The position numbers were made by a program, and so were the translations under genes. A DNA stretch of 64,000 nt, taken from IMG/VR virus record IMGVR_UViG_3300023179_000013, positions 1 through 64,000 of that record; one strand, 5' to 3'. The notes under the pieces are model-generated. The model made no database searches and was not told the origin of the DNA. It saw only the letters and a program-made list of their open reading frames with translations. This document shows, in pieces, positions 12,849 through 64,000 of this stretch (within the stretch, counting starts at the first letter, position 1; each line of letters opens with the position of its first letter). Source of the stretch: a virus.

Positions 12849-12881
12849 TTTAAACGGGTTGTTTCTTTGTTATATTTATAC

Positions 12882-58322: not shown

Positions 58323-58934
58323 ATGAGTAAATCATTATTAATAGATCACACCCCCTTTCAATCAGCTAAGCTTACTTTAGTTGAAGGTAAAGATACTAAA
58401 GCTGGTTTAGTTGAATTAGTAGGTAAACTACAAGCCGCTGACCAAGAAAATGGTAACAATCGTAAATATCCTTTTAAAGTTCTTAAACGTGAAGTAGACA
58501 AATATTTAGAAGGTCCTGTTAAAACACGTACTGCTTTAGGCGAATTAGATCATCCTGAAGCATCTGTTGTAAATTTAGCAAATACTTCACATGTTGTCAC
58601 TGATGTTTGGTGGGATGGAAATAACGTTATGGGTAAAATCCAATTATTACCTACACCATCAGGCAATATTGCTAAAGCATTAATTTTATCAGGTATTCCA
58701 CTTGGTATTTCATCTCGTGGTATGGGTTCAGTTAAACAGTTAGGTGAAACTGTAGAGGTACAAGACGATTTCGAATTATTATGTTGGGATTTAGTATCAG
58801 TACCATCAACCCCACAAGCATATATGCAATTAGCTGAATCTAAGAAATTTGCTTCAGTTAAAGATTATAGTAAAGTAAATGAATTAATTACCGAAATTAT
58901 TTGCGCACAAACAGGAGTATGTCCACTATGTTAA
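58323..58934 (+). CDS. gp21: prohead maturation protease (T4 gp21-like)
   Basis: NGNNRKYP, ALGELDHP, SH, GISSRGMGS, WDLVSVPS. Confidence 0.93.
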   Translation: MSKSLLIDHTPFQSAKLTLVEGKDTKAGLVELVGKLQAADQENGNNRKYPFKVLKREVDKYLEGPVKTRTALGELDHPEASVVNLANTSHVVTDVWWDGNNVMGKIQLLPTPSGNIAKALILSGIPLGISSRGMGSVKQLGETVEVQDDFELLCWDLVSVPSTPQAYMQLAESKKFASVKDYSKVNELITEIICAQTGVCPLC

Positions 58935-59518: not shown

Positions 59519-59547
59519 AAATAATTCGCGGTTTTTAATATCTACAT

Positions 59548-59671
59548 ATATTTATGGGTAGCCTACAATAGCTACCCACTTCTATTTATGGTAGCTTGGT
59601 TAATCAATTAACCCCCATTAAGCTTCTCTAATAAGCTTATTTCCGAAAACAAATTTAAGGAGAAAAACAAA
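59548..59671 (+). promoter_or_regulatory. structured 5' leader of the scaffold/capsid operon
   Basis: ATATTTAT, three hairpins, then TAAGGAG 9 nt before the ATG. Confidence 0.55.
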
Positions 59672-60952
59672 ATGAGTAACAAAAACTTATTCAAAGAGGC
59701 TATCGCCGACGCCAAAGCCGTTCGCGAAGCTGCGTTAGCAAACGCAAAAGCCGCTCTTGAAGAAGCTTTAACTCCAAAACTTCAATCCATGTTAGCTGCA
59801 AAGTTACAAGAAATGGATGGTGAAGAAGAAGTTGAAGAAGCTAAAAAGAGCGAAAAAGAAATGGAAGAAGGATTCGACACTGAAACTTTTGGTTGGGACA
59901 AAGAAGACACTACTTCCCTCAACGAAGAAGATTTAGAAGAAGACTTCGATTTATCTGAAATTTTAGCTGAGTTAAACGAAGCTGAAAAAGAAGAAGCTGG
60001 TGAAGAAGCAGAAGGCGAATCTGAAGAAGAAGAAGCCACTGAAAAAGAACCAACTGGAGAAGAAGGTGAAGAAGAAGTAGAGGTAAAAGATATGACTATC
60101 GAAGACCTCAAAGATCTTATCAAAGACATCGTATCTCAAGAAATGGGTGGTGAAGCTCCTGAAATGGGTGCTGAAGAACCTACAGACATGGGTGGTGAAG
60201 AAACCGGCGGTGCTGAAGATGAGATTGATTTAGAAGAATTGTTAGCTGAATTGGATTCTTTAGATGAATCAGAAGAGCTTGAAGAAGCTAAAAAGAAAAA
60301 AGATAAAGAAAACAAAAAAGAAGACAAAAAAGACAAGAAAATGGTAAAAGAAAATTACGAAGAAGAAGAACTTGAAGAAGGTATCTTTGGTGACTTAGGT
60401 AACAAACTTTCCGCTTGGGCTTATGACACAGATCTTGATACTATCAAATCTTGTAAAGACCAAACTAAAGGAAAAGGAATTGCTGCCTTCCAAGATTGCT
60501 TGAAAAGCAAAGGTGTTAAAATGTCTACTATTGGTACTGAACCAGGCGCTAGCGCTATGGGCGGTAACTGGAAGCAATTCGGTAAAACTACAGGTGAATT
60601 CAAAGAAGAACTTGAAGAAGCTATCGAAACTATCAACACTCTTCGTAATGAGTTAAACGAAGTTAATTTGTTAAACGCTAAGTTACTTTATGTTAATAAA
60701 ATCTTCAAAGCTAAGAATTTGACTGAATCACAAAAAGTAAAAGTAATTGCTTCATTCGATAAAGCAACTAATGTTAAAGAAGCTAAAGTAGTATTTGAAT
60801 CTCTTCAAACTGCTTTAACTGCTGCCCCTAAAAATCAAATCAAAGAAAGTCTTGGATTTGCTTCTAAAGCAGCTGGTATAGCTCCTAACAAAACTATTGT
60901 TGAGTCTAATGATGTGATTGCACGTATGCAAAAACTTGCAAACATCAAATAA
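59672..60952 (+). CDS. gp22: prohead core scaffold (T4 gp22-like)
   Basis: Very acidic coiled coil between protease and capsid genes; LNEVNLLNAKLLY; C-terminal RMQKLANIK. Confidence 0.85.
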   Translation: MSNKNLFKEAIADAKAVREAALANAKAALEEALTPKLQSMLAAKLQEMDGEEEVEEAKKSEKEMEEGFDTETFGWDKEDTTSLNEEDLEEDFDLSEILAELNEAEKEEAGEEAEGESEEEEATEKEPTGEEGEEEVEVKDMTIEDLKDLIKDIVSQEMGGEAPEMGAEEPTDMGGEETGGAEDEIDLEELLAELDSLDESEELEEAKKKKDKENKKEDKKDKKMVKENYEEEELEEGIFGDLGNKLSAWAYDTDLDTIKSCKDQTKGKGIAAFQDCLKSKGVKMSTIGTEPGASAMGGNWKQFGKTTGEFKEELEEAIETINTLRNELNEVNLLNAKLLYVNKIFKAKNLTESQKVKVIASFDKATNVKEAKVVFESLQTALTAAPKNQIKESLGFASKAAGIAPNKTIVESNDVIARMQKLANIK

Positions 60953-60984: not shown

Positions 60985-62652
60985 ATGAACATTCAATCAT
61001 TATTAGAGTCATCAAACCAATACAAGGTTATTGCTGATGACGCCAAAAAACTCTCCGCTAAGTGGACCAAATCTGGTCTCTTAGAAGGATTAAAAAGCGA
61101 GAACGATCGCAATACAATGGCGATGTTACTCGAAAACCAAGCTAAGCAGTTAGTAACTGAAGCTTCATCTACTGGTAACCAATCTGGTGGTGCTGGTGCT
61201 TACAACGGTGAAAGCTGGAACGGTGTTGCCCTTCCATTAGTACGCCGTGTATTCGGTGAAATCGCTGCTAAAGAATTCGTTTCTGTACAGCCGATGAACT
61301 TACCTTCTGGTCTCGTATTCTACTTGGACTTCAAGTATGGTACTGGTGTTAAACCATTTGCCTCTGGTGGTTCTTTATATGGAGCTAATGCTTCTACAAA
61401 CGTAACTGATATTGCTTCAGCTTCATTATATGGTGCTGGTAAATTCGGTTATTCTATCAACCAATTCTCATCTTCTATTGCTGCTATCACATCATCTGCT
61501 GGTGGTGCAACTGGTGCTGCTACTTGGTTAGATTTTAACTTAGACGCTGCTTACTCTTCTTCTTTTACTAGCTTTAAAAAGATCCTTGTTCCATTACCTG
61601 CTAACTTCGATGTTAACGGTGTTCGTGCTTTCCAAGTTCTTTCAGGTTCTACTAACATTGACTTACAAGTATTGTCTGCGTTTACAACTGTATCTAACAA
61701 TACTGGTTCCTTTATCGTTACTGGTTCCTTAATTCCAGTTGCTGCTATTGGTGCTGGTGGTACTTTAGGTAATGTAACTTTATTGTATAACGTAGCTCCT
61801 TTAGCAACATCTCGTGGTGACTTTGAAGATGCTAATAACCTTAACTCTCCAGGTACTAACCCAGGTGGTTATCCAAATAACCAATCACAAACTGCAATTG
61901 CTATTCCAGAAGTTAACGTTCAGTTAAAATCTGAAGCAATCGTTGCTAAAACTCGTAAGTTGAAAGCTCAGTGGACTCCAGAATTCGCTCAAGACTTAAA
62001 CGCTTACCATAGCGTAGATGCTGAAGCTGAATTAACTGGTATCTTATCTCAGTACATCTCTATGGAGATTGACCTCGAGTTGTTAGATATGTTAATCCAG
62101 AACGCTTTCACAGTTGATTACTGGTCTGCTACTAACAACACTGCTTACAGTGTTTCTGGTACTACTGTTACTACTTCTGCATTAGCTTTCTATAACACCC
62201 AAGGTGGTTGGTTCCAAACTTTAGGAACTAAACTCCAGAAAGTTTCTAACAAAATTCACCAGTTAACTTTACGTGGTGGTGCTAACTTCTTAGTTTGCTC
62301 TCCAACTGTAGCTACTATCATCGAATCAATCCCAGGATTTGCTTCTGATGGTGATGGTGATAAAATGGAATTCAACTTCGGTATCCAAAAGGTTGGTTCT
62401 CTTAACAGTCGTTACAAGGTTTACAAGAACCCATATATGACTGAGAACGTAATCTTAATGGGTTACAAAGGTGCTCAATTCCTTGAGTGTGGTGCTGTAT
62501 TTGCTCCATACGTTCCGTTAATCATGACTCCACTTCTTTACGATCCAACAACCTTCACTCCACGTAAAGGTTTGATGACTCGTTACGCTAAGAAGATGAT
62601 CCGTCCTGACTACTACGGTAAGATCTATGTTGCTGGTTTAGATACTATCTAA
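60985..62652 (+). CDS. gp23: major capsid protein, copy 1 (T4 gp23-like)
   Basis: LLENQ, PLVRR, VQPMNLPSGLVF, AKTRKLKAQWTPEFAQDLNAYH, APYVPL, TRYA. Confidence 0.97.
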   Translation: MNIQSLLESSNQYKVIADDAKKLSAKWTKSGLLEGLKSENDRNTMAMLLENQAKQLVTEASSTGNQSGGAGAYNGESWNGVALPLVRRVFGEIAAKEFVSVQPMNLPSGLVFYLDFKYGTGVKPFASGGSLYGANASTNVTDIASASLYGAGKFGYSINQFSSSIAAITSSAGGATGAATWLDFNLDAAYSSSFTSFKKILVPLPANFDVNGVRAFQVLSGSTNIDLQVLSAFTTVSNNTGSFIVTGSLIPVAAIGAGGTLGNVTLLYNVAPLATSRGDFEDANNLNSPGTNPGGYPNNQSQTAIAIPEVNVQLKSEAIVAKTRKLKAQWTPEFAQDLNAYHSVDAEAELTGILSQYISMEIDLELLDMLIQNAFTVDYWSATNNTAYSVSGTTVTTSALAFYNTQGGWFQTLGTKLQKVSNKIHQLTLRGGANFLVCSPTVATIIESIPGFASDGDGDKMEFNFGIQKVGSLNSRYKVYKNPYMTENVILMGYKGAQFLECGAVFAPYVPLIMTPLLYDPTTFTPRKGLMTRYAKKMIRPDYYGKIYVAGLDTI

Positions 62653-62668
62653 TCTGGCTTCTAAATAA

Positions 62669-62702
62669 AAACGACCAGGTGTAAAAGCCTGGTCGTTTAT
62701 TA
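62669..62702 (+). terminator. hairpin between the two capsid genes, probably a leaky terminator
   Basis: AAACGACCAGG-TGTAAAAG-CCTGGTCGTTT-ATT. Confidence 0.65.
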
Positions 62703-62726
62703 AAAAACAATTTAAAACATTCTTAA

Positions 62727-64000
62727 ATGAATATTCAATCTCTGTTAGAGTCATCTAATCAATACAAAGTTATTGCTGATGACGCAAAAAAGCTTACCCA
62801 AAAGTGGGTTAAGTCTGGCCTTTTAGAAGGCATTAAGAGTGAGAATGAGCGTAATACGTTATCCATATTATTGGAAAACCAAGCTAAACAATTAGTAACC
62901 GAAGCATCTTCCACAGGTAACCAAGCTGGTGGTGCAGGTGCTTACAATGGTGAAAGCTGGAACGGTGTAGCTTTACCATTAGTACGTAGAGTATTTGGTG
63001 AGATTGCTGCTAAAGAATTCGTTAGTGTTCAACCAATGAATTTACCTTCTGGTCTTGTGTTTTATTTGGATTTTAAGTACGGTACTAATGATGTGCATTT
63101 TACCCAAAATGCTTCATTATATGGTGCTAACGCTACCACAAACGTAACTGACATTACATCTGAATCTCTTTATGGTCCTGGACAATTTGGTTATTCTATC
63201 AATAACTTCTCAGCTTCTGTTTCAAATGCACTTACAGGTGCTCTTGCCACATGGGCTGACTTTAACTTAAATGCAGATTATTCTGCTTCTGCAGCAGCTA
63301 ATTTGTATAGAAAGTTATTAGTTCCATTACCAGCAAACTCTGACGTAAATGCAGTTCGTTCATTTTTTATTAGTGGTAGTACAATATCTGGTTCAGGAGC
63401 TAATGCTTGGGAAGCTATTGGAAGTTATACTATATCTAATATCTTACAAGAATTTACTACTGTAGCAAATAATACTGCTTCATTCTTATTACCTTCATCT
63501 TCATTTGTTAAGATTGTAGGAACAGCTCCAACCAGTTCTAATGGTGTTCAAACAGCAGTATTGTACTACACAGTACAACCTTTAGCAACATCACGTGGTG
63601 ATTTTGAAGACGCTAGCAACTCTAACTCCCCAGGTACTAATCCTGGTGGTTATCCTAGTAATTTAAGTCAAACCACAATTTCAATTCCTGAAGTTAATGT
63701 TCAGTTAAAATCTGAAGCTATTGTAGCTAAAACTCGTAAGTTGAAAGCACAATGGACACCTGAATTTGCCCAGGATTTGAATGCTTATCATTCAGTAGAC
63801 GCTGAATCTGAATTAACAGGAATTTTATCTCAATACATTTCTATGGAAATTGATCTTGAGTTATTAGACATGTTAATCCAAAACGCCTTTACTGTTGATT
63901 ATTGGTCTGCTACTAACAACACTGCTTATGGTGTTTCTGGTACTACTGTTACTACTACTAACTTAGCCTTTTACAATACTCAAGGTGGTTGGTTCCAAAC
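62727..64000 (+). CDS. gp23: major capsid protein paralog, copy 2 (truncated by window end; not in ORF track)
   Basis: Open from ATG 62727: MNIQSLLESSNQYKVIADDAKKLTQKWVKSGLLEG...TRKLKAQWTPEFAQDLNAYHSVDAE...QGGWFQ. Confidence 0.93.
   Translation, partial: MNIQSLLESSNQYKVIADDAKKLTQKWVKSGLLEGIKSENERNTLSILLENQAKQLVTEASSTGNQAGGAGAYNGESWNGVALPLVRRVFGEIAAKEFVSVQPMNLPSGLVFYLDFKYGTNDVHFTQNASLYGANATTNVTDITSESLYGPGQFGYSINNFSASVSNALTGALATWADFNLNADYSASAAANLYRKLLVPLPANSDVNAVRSFFISGSTISGSGANAWEAIGSYTISNILQEFTTVANNTASFLLPSSSFVKIVGTAPTSSNGVQTAVLYYTVQPLATSRGDFEDASNSNSPGTNPGGYPSNLSQTTISIPEVNVQLKSEAIVAKTRKLKAQWTPEFAQDLNAYHSVDAESELTGILSQYISMEIDLELLDMLIQNAFTVDYWSATNNTAYGVSGTTVTTTNLAFYNTQGGWFQ

What the first reader, a model, noticed from the sequence alone, without database searches (positions are those of the whole stretch)
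60985..64000. Tandem major capsid paralogs with conserved shell core but diverged insertion domain
Seen: copy 2 is nearly identical in protein to copy 1 over residues 1-120 and from PLATSRGDFED onward. The intervening region (61345-61797 versus 63087-63578, 13 aa longer in copy 2) is strongly diverged. Many synonymous differences rule out an assembly duplicate. Copy 1 favours C-ending codons (TTC, AAC, ATC) where copy 2 often has T-ending ones, and a terminator-like hairpin separates them. Established: T4 gp24 is an ancient gp23 paralog forming vertices, and the insertion domain is surface-exposed. Inference: a young minor capsid or vertex protein made by read-through, or mosaic capsids with two surface variants, with possible domain exchange by recombination.
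Basis: partly seen in the sequence, partly recalled or inferred. Interest (0 to 1): 0.78.

Follow-up and report, generated by a model that had tools for sequence, protein, structure and literature searches.

The report
Conserved second capsid gene beside first
A T4-like phage, probably of Flavobacterium-type hosts, carries two intact shell-protein genes in a row; the second is an old, conserved, more weakly expressed copy that differs only in the surface domain locking neighbouring subunits together, and it may be an independently evolved corner (vertex) protein like T4 gp24.

Summary
The window is the first 64 kb of a complete 168,946-bp phage genome. Copy 2 is intact beyond the window (62727-64433, 568 aa).

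- **Same family, one divergent domain.** Both copies are T4 gp23-family capsid proteins. Identity is about 93-95% in the shell core and about 52% in the insertion (I) domain.
- **Not young.** Silent sites are saturated (dS 1.0-1.9).
- **Copy 2 belongs to a distinct "b-type" lineage.** Its I-domain forms one clade (support 100/99). It was found only as the downstream gene of tandem pairs, in 13 of 13 loci. About 75 protein clusters in public data carry it.
- **One relative (L034) made a tandem pair independently.**
- **The downstream copy looks less expressed.** It has weaker codon bias in 14 of 14 pairs. In this genome copy 1 ranks 1st of 184 genes and copy 2 ranks 24th. It also sits behind a hairpin conserved through compensatory changes, with no promoter motif of its own.
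- **The b-type I-domain is more constrained than the a-type** (dN 0.20 against 0.34, 36 of 36 comparisons).

Best reading: a specialised minor capsid subunit, most likely vertex pentamers, evolved independently of T4 gp24. Location in the virion is untested. The scan holds notes on other capsid paralogs in other genomes, but none on this family.

The parts
59547..59556 (+). Promoter-like motif TATATTTATG, one mismatch from the genome's recurrent TATATTTATA motif. It is the last such motif before the scaffold gene and both capsid genes.
   Evidence: The exact motif occurs 11 times on the + strand of the genome, mostly 15-35 nt before a start codon. None, with up to 1 mismatch, lies between 59547 and 64506. 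Its function as a promoter is inferred.
59672..60952 (+). Acidic scaffold-like gene (gp22 position), directly upstream of and probably co-transcribed with the capsid genes.
   Evidence: ORF. No Pfam or PHROG hit. It lies after the prohead protease gene, PF03420, at 58323-58934. It has the second-highest codon bias in the genome.
60985..62652 (+). Copy 1, the a-type major capsid protein, 555 aa.
   Evidence: Pfam Gp23, E 6e-77. Strongest C-ending codon bias of 184 genes. Its I-domain clusters with a-type I-domains of relatives.
61345..61797 (+). Diverged insertion-domain block of copy 1 (residues 121-271).
   Evidence: About 52% identity to copy 2 here, against 93-95% in the flanks. NG86 omega is 0.40 here, against 0.03-0.06 in the core.
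62669..62698 (+). Conserved intergenic hairpin (11-bp stem, 8-nt loop) with a T-rich tail. Candidate leaky terminator or transcript-end stabiliser between the two genes.
   Evidence: The homologous hairpin is present in 9 related pairs. All 12 pairs are kept, 5 of them through changes on both sides. Non-homologous hairpins occupy the same place in the L018/L020 and L034 pairs.
62727..64000 (+). Copy 2, the b-type capsid paralog. The part in the window is 424 codons; the gene continues to genome position 64433 (568 aa). A strong terminator follows at 64473-64500, beyond the window.
   Evidence: Pfam Gp23. AF2 model with pLDDT 85 and pTM 0.84; best PDB matches are T4 gp23.
63087..63578 (+). Diverged insertion-domain block of copy 2 (residues 121-284), carrying the b-type signature (YGTNDVHF, GQFGYSIN, RSFFISGS and a 13-20 aa insert).
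   Evidence: b-specific columns are confined to residues 122-305. b-type I-domains form one clade, support 100/99, and are 77% column-identical across 6 lineages.

Best explanation
**Shown.**
- The phage encodes two intact T4 gp23-family capsid proteins in one head-gene unit: scaffold, copy 1, hairpin, copy 2, strong terminator.
- Copy 1 is the bulk shell protein.
- Copy 2 belongs to an old, conserved b-type paralog lineage that exists only as the second gene of such pairs.
- Copy 2 keeps the same shell core as its partner. It differs only in the insertion domain and its linkers.
- The b-type domain is under stronger purifying selection than the partner's hypervariable one.
- All sequence proxies point to lower expression of copy 2.

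**Inferred.**
- Copy 2 is made in smaller amounts, by read-through of the conserved hairpin and with less optimal codons.
- It co-assembles with copy 1 on the same scaffold into the same prohead.
- In T4 the insertion domain lies on top of the neighbouring subunit of the same capsomer and locks the capsomer together. A paralog changed only there is what a capsomer-type-specific subunit would look like.
- I therefore think copy 2 most likely forms the pentameric vertices, a gp24-like job evolved independently of T4 gp24.
- Such a subunit would be an optional stabiliser, because close relatives with one gene must build vertices from the major protein.
For: - **Intact and family.** Copy 2 is intact beyond the window. 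Both copies are Gp23 family and are the only two Gp23 matches in the genome, so there is no separate gp24.
- **Selection.** Core omega is 0.03-0.06 with dS above 1, so both genes have long been under purifying selection.
- **Lineage.** The b-type I-domains form one clade, support 100/99. A b-type domain is the downstream copy in 13 of 13 loci and never appears in a single-copy locus. About 75 90%-identity clusters of b-type proteins, 562-590 aa, are separated by a score gap from a-type proteins.
- **Where the copies differ.** b-specific residues lie only in residues 122-305.
- **Constraint.** I-domain dN is 0.199 for b-b comparisons and 0.341 for a-a, lower in 36 of 36 genome pairs at similar dS.
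- **Codon bias.** a exceeds b in 14 of 14 pairs. In this genome copy 1 ranks 1st and copy 2 ranks 24th of 184 genes.
- **Hairpin.** Five of its 12 pairs are kept through compensatory changes. No promoter motif lies before copy 2.
- **Matched cores.** The core of b is closer in protein to its co-resident a (pN 0.082) than to other a copies (0.117; permutation p 5e-5).
- **Repeatability.** An independent tandem pair in L034 shows the same layout.
- **Literature.** The T4 I-domain sits on the neighbouring subunit of the same capsomer (PMC9546572). gp24 raises capsid stability and can be bypassed (PMC10580926; PMC9958956). Adjacent hexon and penton capsid genes occur in phage Jabs.
Against: - There is no direct evidence of virion location or stoichiometry.
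- No b-specific change lies in the A domain, where some of the T4 gp24-bypass mutations map. Nothing in the sequence marks copy 2 as a pentamer former.
- Both copies keep the same long N-terminal propeptide, unlike T4 gp24.
- A codon-bias rank of 24 of 184 is still fairly high for about 55 copies per virion.
- The hairpin's T-tail is interrupted, so termination efficiency is unknown. It could equally act as an mRNA stabiliser.
- Many close relatives lack the gene, so it is dispensable in the family.
Confidence: 0.5

Rival explanations
1. Copy 2 is a minor subunit that mixes into hexamers, or builds a subset of hexamers such as those next to the vertices or the portal. This would give a mosaic shell with a second surface or docking domain, perhaps for a decoration or fibre protein.
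For: - The shell core, including the A domain, is the same in both copies, so mixing is sterically plausible.
- In Flavobacterium phage immuto the same genomic slot holds an unrelated Ig-like, possibly decoration, gene.
- The moderately high codon-bias rank of copy 2 would suit more than 55 copies per virion.
Against: - The b-type I-domain is more conserved than the a-type. That argues against a role as a variable surface.
- No partner gene co-occurring with copy b was identified.
- In T4 the I-domain acts within the capsomer. That favours homogeneous capsomers over mixed ones.
Confidence: 0.27
2. Copy 2 is an alternative or back-up shell protein used under particular conditions. For example, it might take over when a host defence senses or blocks the hypervariable copy 1, or in another host. 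Its expression would be switched by antitermination at the hairpin.
For: - Copy a shows rapid turnover and recombinational replacement of its I-domain among near-identical phages. This is compatible with an arms race on the major protein.
- The hairpin could be a regulated attenuator.
Against: - Cores of co-resident copies are kept matched in protein. This fits co-assembly better than alternation.
- Copy 2 has no promoter of its own.
- Its consistently weaker codon bias does not suit a protein that must at times build the whole shell.
- No antiterminator or sensor was identified.
Confidence: 0.1
3. Copy 2 is a neutral or decaying duplicate, a gene recently captured from another phage with no distinct role, or an assembly artefact.
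For: The gene is patchily distributed among close relatives. Several contigs break inside copy b.
Against: - The gene is intact in every locus that covers it.
- Core omega is 0.03-0.06 at dS above 1.
- The b lineage is conserved across at least 11 phage lineages, with its own constrained I-domain.
- The longest shared exact match is 26 nt.
- The arrangement appears in 13 other contigs from separate samples.
Confidence: 0.03

Closest known systems
Phage T4 gp23 (major capsid protein) and gp24 (vertex protein), adjacent paralogous genes 23 and 24
   Same: - Same protein family (PF07068).
- Same fold, with an insertion domain in the E-loop position.
- Same gene order: protease, scaffold, major gene, then a paralog immediately downstream.
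- The paralog is expected at lower abundance.
- The extra protein is dispensable in principle: T4 has bypass mutants, and here there are single-gene relatives.
   Different: - The pair here is about 74% identical overall, with a 93-95% identical core.
- Both copies resemble gp23 far more than gp24: profile E 1e-35 against 6e-4, and fold E 2e-20 against 3e-11.
- Both keep the same long N-terminal region, whereas by my own recollection (not checked here) gp24 has only a short propeptide.
- Divergence is confined to the I-domain.
- The duplication is therefore separate from the gp23/gp24 split, and the vertex role is not shown.
Mycobacterium abscessus phage Jabs, MCPh (ORF72, hexons) and MCPp (ORF73, pentons) (bioRxiv 10.64898/2026.07.24.740622)
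   Same: Two adjacent capsid genes, with the downstream one forming the 11 pentons, shown by cryo-EM. This is a precedent for hexon and penton specialisation by neighbouring paralogs outside T4.
   Different: Jabs is a siphovirus with a T=9 capsid. Its two proteins differ greatly in size (594 and 257 aa). It is not of the T4 I-domain type, and no sequence relationship was tested here.
T4-superfamily phages without gp24, for example Sinorhizobium phage PhiM9 (PMC4621102) and Flavobacterium phage immuto
   Same: Like the single-gene relatives of this phage, they have one gp23-type gene. In PhiM9 the penton subunit is taken to be gp23 itself, since no gp24-like gene is encoded. Immuto is the closest cultured relative, at 58.5% capsid-protein identity.
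   Different: They have no second capsid gene. In immuto the slot after the capsid gene holds a small ORF and an unrelated 546-aa Ig-like protein.
Tandem gp24a/gp24b vertex-gene pairs of JS98-like coliphages (scan notes e1-183624 and e1-2014270; not checked here)
   Same: A conserved tandem pair of capsid-family paralogs in T4-like phages, where the role of the second copy is untested.
   Different: Those are duplicates of the already diverged gp24, present in addition to gp23. Here the major protein itself is duplicated and no gp24 exists.

Membership tests
T4-type major capsid protein family (Pfam Gp23, PF07068) | Profile match above the curated cut-off | tested here: met
   Copy 1 scores 260 bits and the window part of copy 2 scores 133 bits, against a cut-off of 24.4. 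The genome search gives 215 bits for each.
T4-type major capsid protein family (Pfam Gp23, PF07068) | HK97-like fold with a large insertion domain carried on the E-loop-equivalent linkers | tested here: met
   AF2 model of copy 2 has pLDDT 85.3 and pTM 0.84. Long paired strands at 108-118 and 323-342 flank a folded domain at about 160-281. The best PDB matches are T4 gp23 chains, E 2e-20. The domain scheme is from PMC9546572.
T4-type major capsid protein family (Pfam Gp23, PF07068) | Position in the head module after the prohead protease and scaffold genes | tested here: met
   Protease PF03420 is at 58323-58934 and the scaffold-like ORF at 59672-60952, followed by the two capsid genes.
T4 gp24 head vertex protein (as an ortholog) | Closer in sequence and structure to gp24 than to gp23 | tested here: not met
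   The family profile scores E 1e-35 against gp23 and 6e-4 against gp24. Foldseek gives 2e-20 for gp23 and 2.8e-11 for 1yue. Copy 2 is most similar to copy 1.
T4 gp24 head vertex protein (as an ortholog) | Gene immediately downstream of the major capsid gene | tested here: met
   Copy 2 starts 74 nt after the stop codon of copy 1.
T4 gp24 head vertex protein (as an ortholog) | Forms the pentamers of the 11 non-portal vertices | not testable with these tools
   This needs virion proteomics, cryo-EM or multimer modelling. Only indirect expression proxies are available.
T4 gp24 head vertex protein (as an ortholog) | Much shorter N-terminal propeptide than the major protein. This feature of T4 is from my own knowledge and was not checked in a paper here. 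| tested here: not met
   The first 120 residues are collinear and 92.5% identical in the two copies.
b-type capsid paralog lineage (defined in this report) | I-domain falls in the b clade and carries its signature residues (for example YGTNDVHF and RSFFISGS) | tested here: met
   The clade of 7 b copies has support 100/99. The signature columns are listed and the alignment is.
b-type capsid paralog lineage (defined in this report) | Downstream member of a tandem pair behind an a-type gene and a hairpin | tested here: met
   13 of 13 loci with a b-type domain. Hairpins are shown.

The most novel reading that the evidence does not exclude
This lineage shows a vertex-specialised capsid protein at an early stage. 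The paralog still shares its partner's shell core and differs only in the capsomer-interlocking insertion domain. It is expressed at a lower level from the same transcript. Comparable pairs arose at least twice (the b-type lineage and the L034 pair). The two cores are kept matched at the protein level while silent sites have diverged to saturation, which leaves no long identical DNA to drive recombinational loss of the repeat.
Probability: 0.35. Interest if true: 0.8.

Novelty: new variant of a known kind. Interest (0 to 1): 0.62.

Why it matters
How icosahedral viruses came to use a separate protein for their corners is known mainly from the endpoint, T4 gp23 and gp24, which are only distantly alike.

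Here the two proteins are still about 95% identical in the shell. They differ only in the domain that, in T4, locks neighbouring subunits of one capsomer together. Close relatives with and without the second gene exist, and one lineage has made a pair independently. That makes specific questions testable:
- Does an I-domain change alone steer a subunit into pentamers?
- What does the second protein add to capsid stability?
- How do two co-assembling paralogs stay compatible?

The data also show that the major protein's surface domain turns over quickly by recombination among phages, while the paralog's does not. This bears on what selects capsid surfaces in nature. If the vertex reading is wrong, the pair is still an unreported case of a tailed phage shell apparently built from two near-identical major-type proteins.

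Tried and rejected
- **Assembly duplicate or strain chimera: rejected.** The longest shared exact match is 26 nt, and the arrangement recurs in 13 other contigs.
- **Young duplicate: rejected.** dS is 1.0-1.9 throughout.
- **Recent gene conversion as the cause of the matched cores: no clear support.**
  - A permutation test on the longest identical run gives p 0.62.
  - Co-resident and non-co-resident pairs have the same pS, 0.60.
  - Local dips in pS at the variable loops remain.
  - The two copies share a linker variant unique to this genome.
  - Together these allow old, patchy exchange.
- **Independent duplication in every lineage: left unresolved.** The first core tree suggested it. The I-domain clade does not support it. 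An AU test on the core does not reject a single b clade (p 0.20).
- **Hidden gp24 elsewhere in the genome: none found** with PF07068 at E up to 10.
- **The immuto 546-aa gene in the same slot as a diverged capsid paralog: rejected** (hhalign probability 1%).
- **First structure prediction: unusable.** With a shallow alignment it reached only pLDDT 50. It was replaced by the model from a deeper alignment.
- **A G-rich linker first looked b-specific.** It also occurs in some single-copy a-type genes.
- **The look-up of encoding contigs was closed.** The genomic context of most of the roughly 75 b-type protein clusters could not be checked.
- **Literature searches found no description of tandem gp23 paralogs in this phage group**.
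Full report
**1. What is there**

The window is the first 64 kb of a single-contig virus genome of 168,946 bp. The record has direct terminal repeats and is rated complete.

The head module reads as follows:
- prohead protease, PF03420, at 58323-58934;
- an acidic scaffold-like gene at 59672-60952;
- capsid copy 1 at 60985-62652 (555 aa);
- a 74-nt spacer;
- capsid copy 2 from 62727.

Copy 2 runs off the window. In the genome it is intact to 64433 (568 aa). Both copies match Pfam Gp23, and they are the only Gp23 matches in the genome at E up to 10. The phage therefore has no separate gp24-like gene.

The closest cultured relative is Flavobacterium phage vB_FspM_immuto, at 58.5% capsid-protein identity, and it has one capsid gene.

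**2. Check of the observation**

- **Identity by region.** The global alignment gives 92.5% identity over residues 1-120, about 52% in the middle block, and 95.4% from PLATSRGD to the end.
- **Synonymous divergence.** It is high and even: pS 0.54-0.69 and dS 1.0-1.9. Omega is 0.03-0.06 in the core and 0.40 in the middle block.
- **No assembly artefact.** The longest identical nucleotide run is 26 nt.
- **Codon bias.** The C-ending fraction of two-fold NNY codons is 0.647 for copy 1, the highest of 184 genes. It is 0.348 for copy 2, rank 24, against a genome median of 0.22. At conserved NNY sites copy 1 has C where copy 2 has T 50 times, and the reverse 13 times.
- **Hairpin and terminator.** A hairpin lies at 62669-62698. 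A much stronger terminator follows copy 2 at 64473-64500.

**3. Structure**

A first model from a shallow alignment was poor, with pLDDT 50. An alignment of 95 diverse homologues gave a model of copy 2 with pLDDT 85.3 and pTM 0.84.

In that model two long strands (108-118 and 323-342) flank a folded domain at about 160-281. The b-specific insert (about 221-240) and the linker at about 296-320 are of low confidence.

The best PDB matches are T4 gp23 chains (E 2e-20); gp24 (1yue) scores 2.8e-11. A family profile scores E 1e-35 against gp23 and 6e-4 against gp24. The diverged block is therefore the insertion (I) domain with its linkers.

In T4 the I-domain forms the surface protrusions, lies on top of the neighbouring subunit of the same capsomer, and interlocks the capsomer. 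Its linkers stand in for the HK97 E-loop (PMC9546572).

**4. Relatives**

Most of about 150 related IMG/VR and metagenome loci have one capsid gene.

- **Tandem pairs** occur in L018, L019 (the same contig as L085), L020 (the same contig as L107 and L168), L034, L086, L087 (a 159.6-kb contig), L088, L164-L167, L169 and L170.
- **I-domain tree.** The downstream copies of the window, L087, L086, L088, L020, L018 and L019 form one clade with support 100/99. L034's two copies are each other's sisters, so L034 is an independent duplication.
- **Later pairs.** The pairs found afterwards (L164-L170) also have their nearest I-domains among b copies.
- **Position rule.** Every locus with a b-type I-domain, 13 of 13, has it in the second gene of a pair. 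No single-copy locus has one.
- **Wider database.** A search of the large protein collection with the copy 2 I-domain gave about 75 90%-identity clusters at 176-235 bits, mostly 562-590 aa. After a gap come a-type proteins at 165 bits or less, 530-555 aa.
- **Where the copies differ.** b-specific residues are confined to residues 122-305. None lies in the N-terminal arm or in the P and A domains. The b-type I-domain is well conserved, with 77% mean column identity over six lineages.

**5. Evolutionary pattern**

Across nine genomes that have both genes:
- I-domain dN is lower between b copies than between a copies in 36 of 36 comparisons (mean 0.199 against 0.341) at similar dS (0.82 against 0.78).
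- Core dN is equal (0.101 against 0.104).
- Core dS is higher for b in 33 of 36 comparisons, as expected for weaker codon selection.

The comparisons share branches and are not independent, but the direction is uniform. The major protein thus has the fast-changing surface domain and the paralog the constrained one.

L165 and L166 carry an identical b gene and an identical C-terminal core of a. They differ by about 19% in the upstream region, a's N-terminal core and a's I-domain. The breakpoint lies just after the I-domain. This shows recombinational replacement at the major gene among phages.

The core of each b copy is closer in protein to its co-resident a (mean pN 0.082) than to other a copies (0.117; permutation p 5e-5; nearest a copy in 6 of 8). 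Silent divergence is the same in both cases, pS 0.60.

In this genome the two copies also share a linker variant after RGDFED that no other sequence has. pS dips locally at the variable loops. I read this as co-adaptation, old patchy exchange between the copies, or both. The data do not separate the two.

Core-nucleotide trees place b copies near their own partners' clades. An AU test does not reject one b clade (p 0.20). A single old origin with later losses, and spread of the b gene between lineages, both remain possible.

**6. Expression signals**

- **Codon bias.** The downstream copy has the weaker C-ending bias in all 14 pairs, including the independent L034 pair.
- **Hairpin.** Nine pairs share a homologous hairpin. 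All 12 of its pairs are maintained, 5 of them through changes on both sides, and a T-rich tail follows. The L018/L020 and L034 pairs have different hairpins at the same place.
- **Promoter motif.** TATATTTATA occurs 11 times on the + strand of the genome, mostly just upstream of start codons. With one mismatch allowed, it occurs at 59547 (before the scaffold gene) and at 64506 (after the copy 2 terminator), with none in between.

I infer one transcription unit with partial termination or transcript-end formation after copy 1. This is an inference from sequence only.

**7. Interpretation**

*Shown:*
- Both genes are intact and under long-term purifying selection.
- Copy 2 is a member of a conserved paralog lineage tied to the second position.
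- Differentiation is confined to the I-domain.
- All expression proxies point to lower output.

*Inferred:*
- The two proteins co-assemble.
- Because the T4 I-domain works inside the capsomer, a paralog altered only there is a good candidate for a capsomer-type-specific subunit, which would be the pentons.
- T4 (genes 23 and 24) and phage Jabs (ORF72 hexons, ORF73 pentons) are precedents for a downstream penton paralog.
- T4 work shows that a dedicated vertex protein is bypassable yet raises capsid stability. This would fit the patchy presence of copy b among close relatives.
- PhiM9 illustrates the one-gene state, in which gp23 is taken to fill the pentons.

*Against the vertex reading:*
- There is no b-specific change in the A domain, where some T4 bypass mutations map.
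- The two copies have identical propeptides.
- The codon-bias rank of copy 2 is still fairly high.
- No direct data on virion location exist.

I put the vertex reading at about 0.5, a minor hexamer or mosaic subunit at about 0.27, a conditional alternative shell protein at about 0.1, and a functionless copy or artefact at about 0.03.

**8. Comparison and novelty**

Both genes are members of the gp23 family. Copy 2 is not an ortholog of gp24. It is nearer to gp23 and to its own partner, and single-gene relatives surround it, so any gp24-like role would be convergent.

I found no paper describing tandem gp23 paralogs in this phage group in the library searched.

The scan's own notes list other capsid paralogs in other genomes, including tandem gp24 pairs in coliphages. 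None concerns this family apart from an overlapping read of the same stretch.

I rate it a new variant of a known kind, with moderate to high interest.

Noticed in passing
L034:4255-7614: A more distant relative carries its own tandem capsid pair. The I-domains are each other's closest relatives (68% identical), the core is 97.7% identical, dS is 1.2, a different hairpin lies between the genes, and the downstream copy has weaker codon bias. This is an independent repeat of the same arrangement.
   Followed up: partly
L165:1-3817 and L166:839-4668: Two metagenome contigs share an identical copy b and C-terminal half of copy a, but are only about 81% identical upstream of a point just after copy a's I-domain. 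This looks like a clean recombination breakpoint inside the major capsid gene.
   Followed up: partly
genome-wide; in the window at 12871, 13226, 27523, 50481 (exact) and 59547 (one mismatch): The motif TATATTTATA occurs 11 times on the + strand of the 169-kb genome, usually 15-35 nt before a start codon and often right after a terminator. It is also conserved after the capsid terminator in relatives. It is a likely phage promoter element.
   Followed up: partly
L244:7696-9616 (Flavobacterium phage immuto, MW353175.1 128591-130514): In the closest cultured relative the slot between the capsid gene and phoH holds a 90-aa ORF and a 546-aa protein. The larger protein has faint Ig-domain hits and no relation to the capsid protein. 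It may be a decoration protein occupying the place that copy b has here.
   Followed up: partly
window 61798-61905 and 63579-63686: The linker after RGDFED exists in several allelic forms among relatives: short GQTK-type, ASGAGYP-type, and long G-rich GGNGGYP-type. The two copies of this genome share a variant of their own (NSPGTNPGGYP) seen nowhere else, a sign of past exchange between them.
   Followed up: partly
L018, L019, L086, L088, L170 (contig ends): Several short contigs end inside copy b. Two-gene phages may therefore be under-represented among assembled viral contigs.
   Followed up: no
L015 and L090 (single-copy loci): Their I-domain is the weakly supported sister (82/64) of the b clade. 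They might be a/b hybrids left by recombinational loss of one copy.
   Followed up: no
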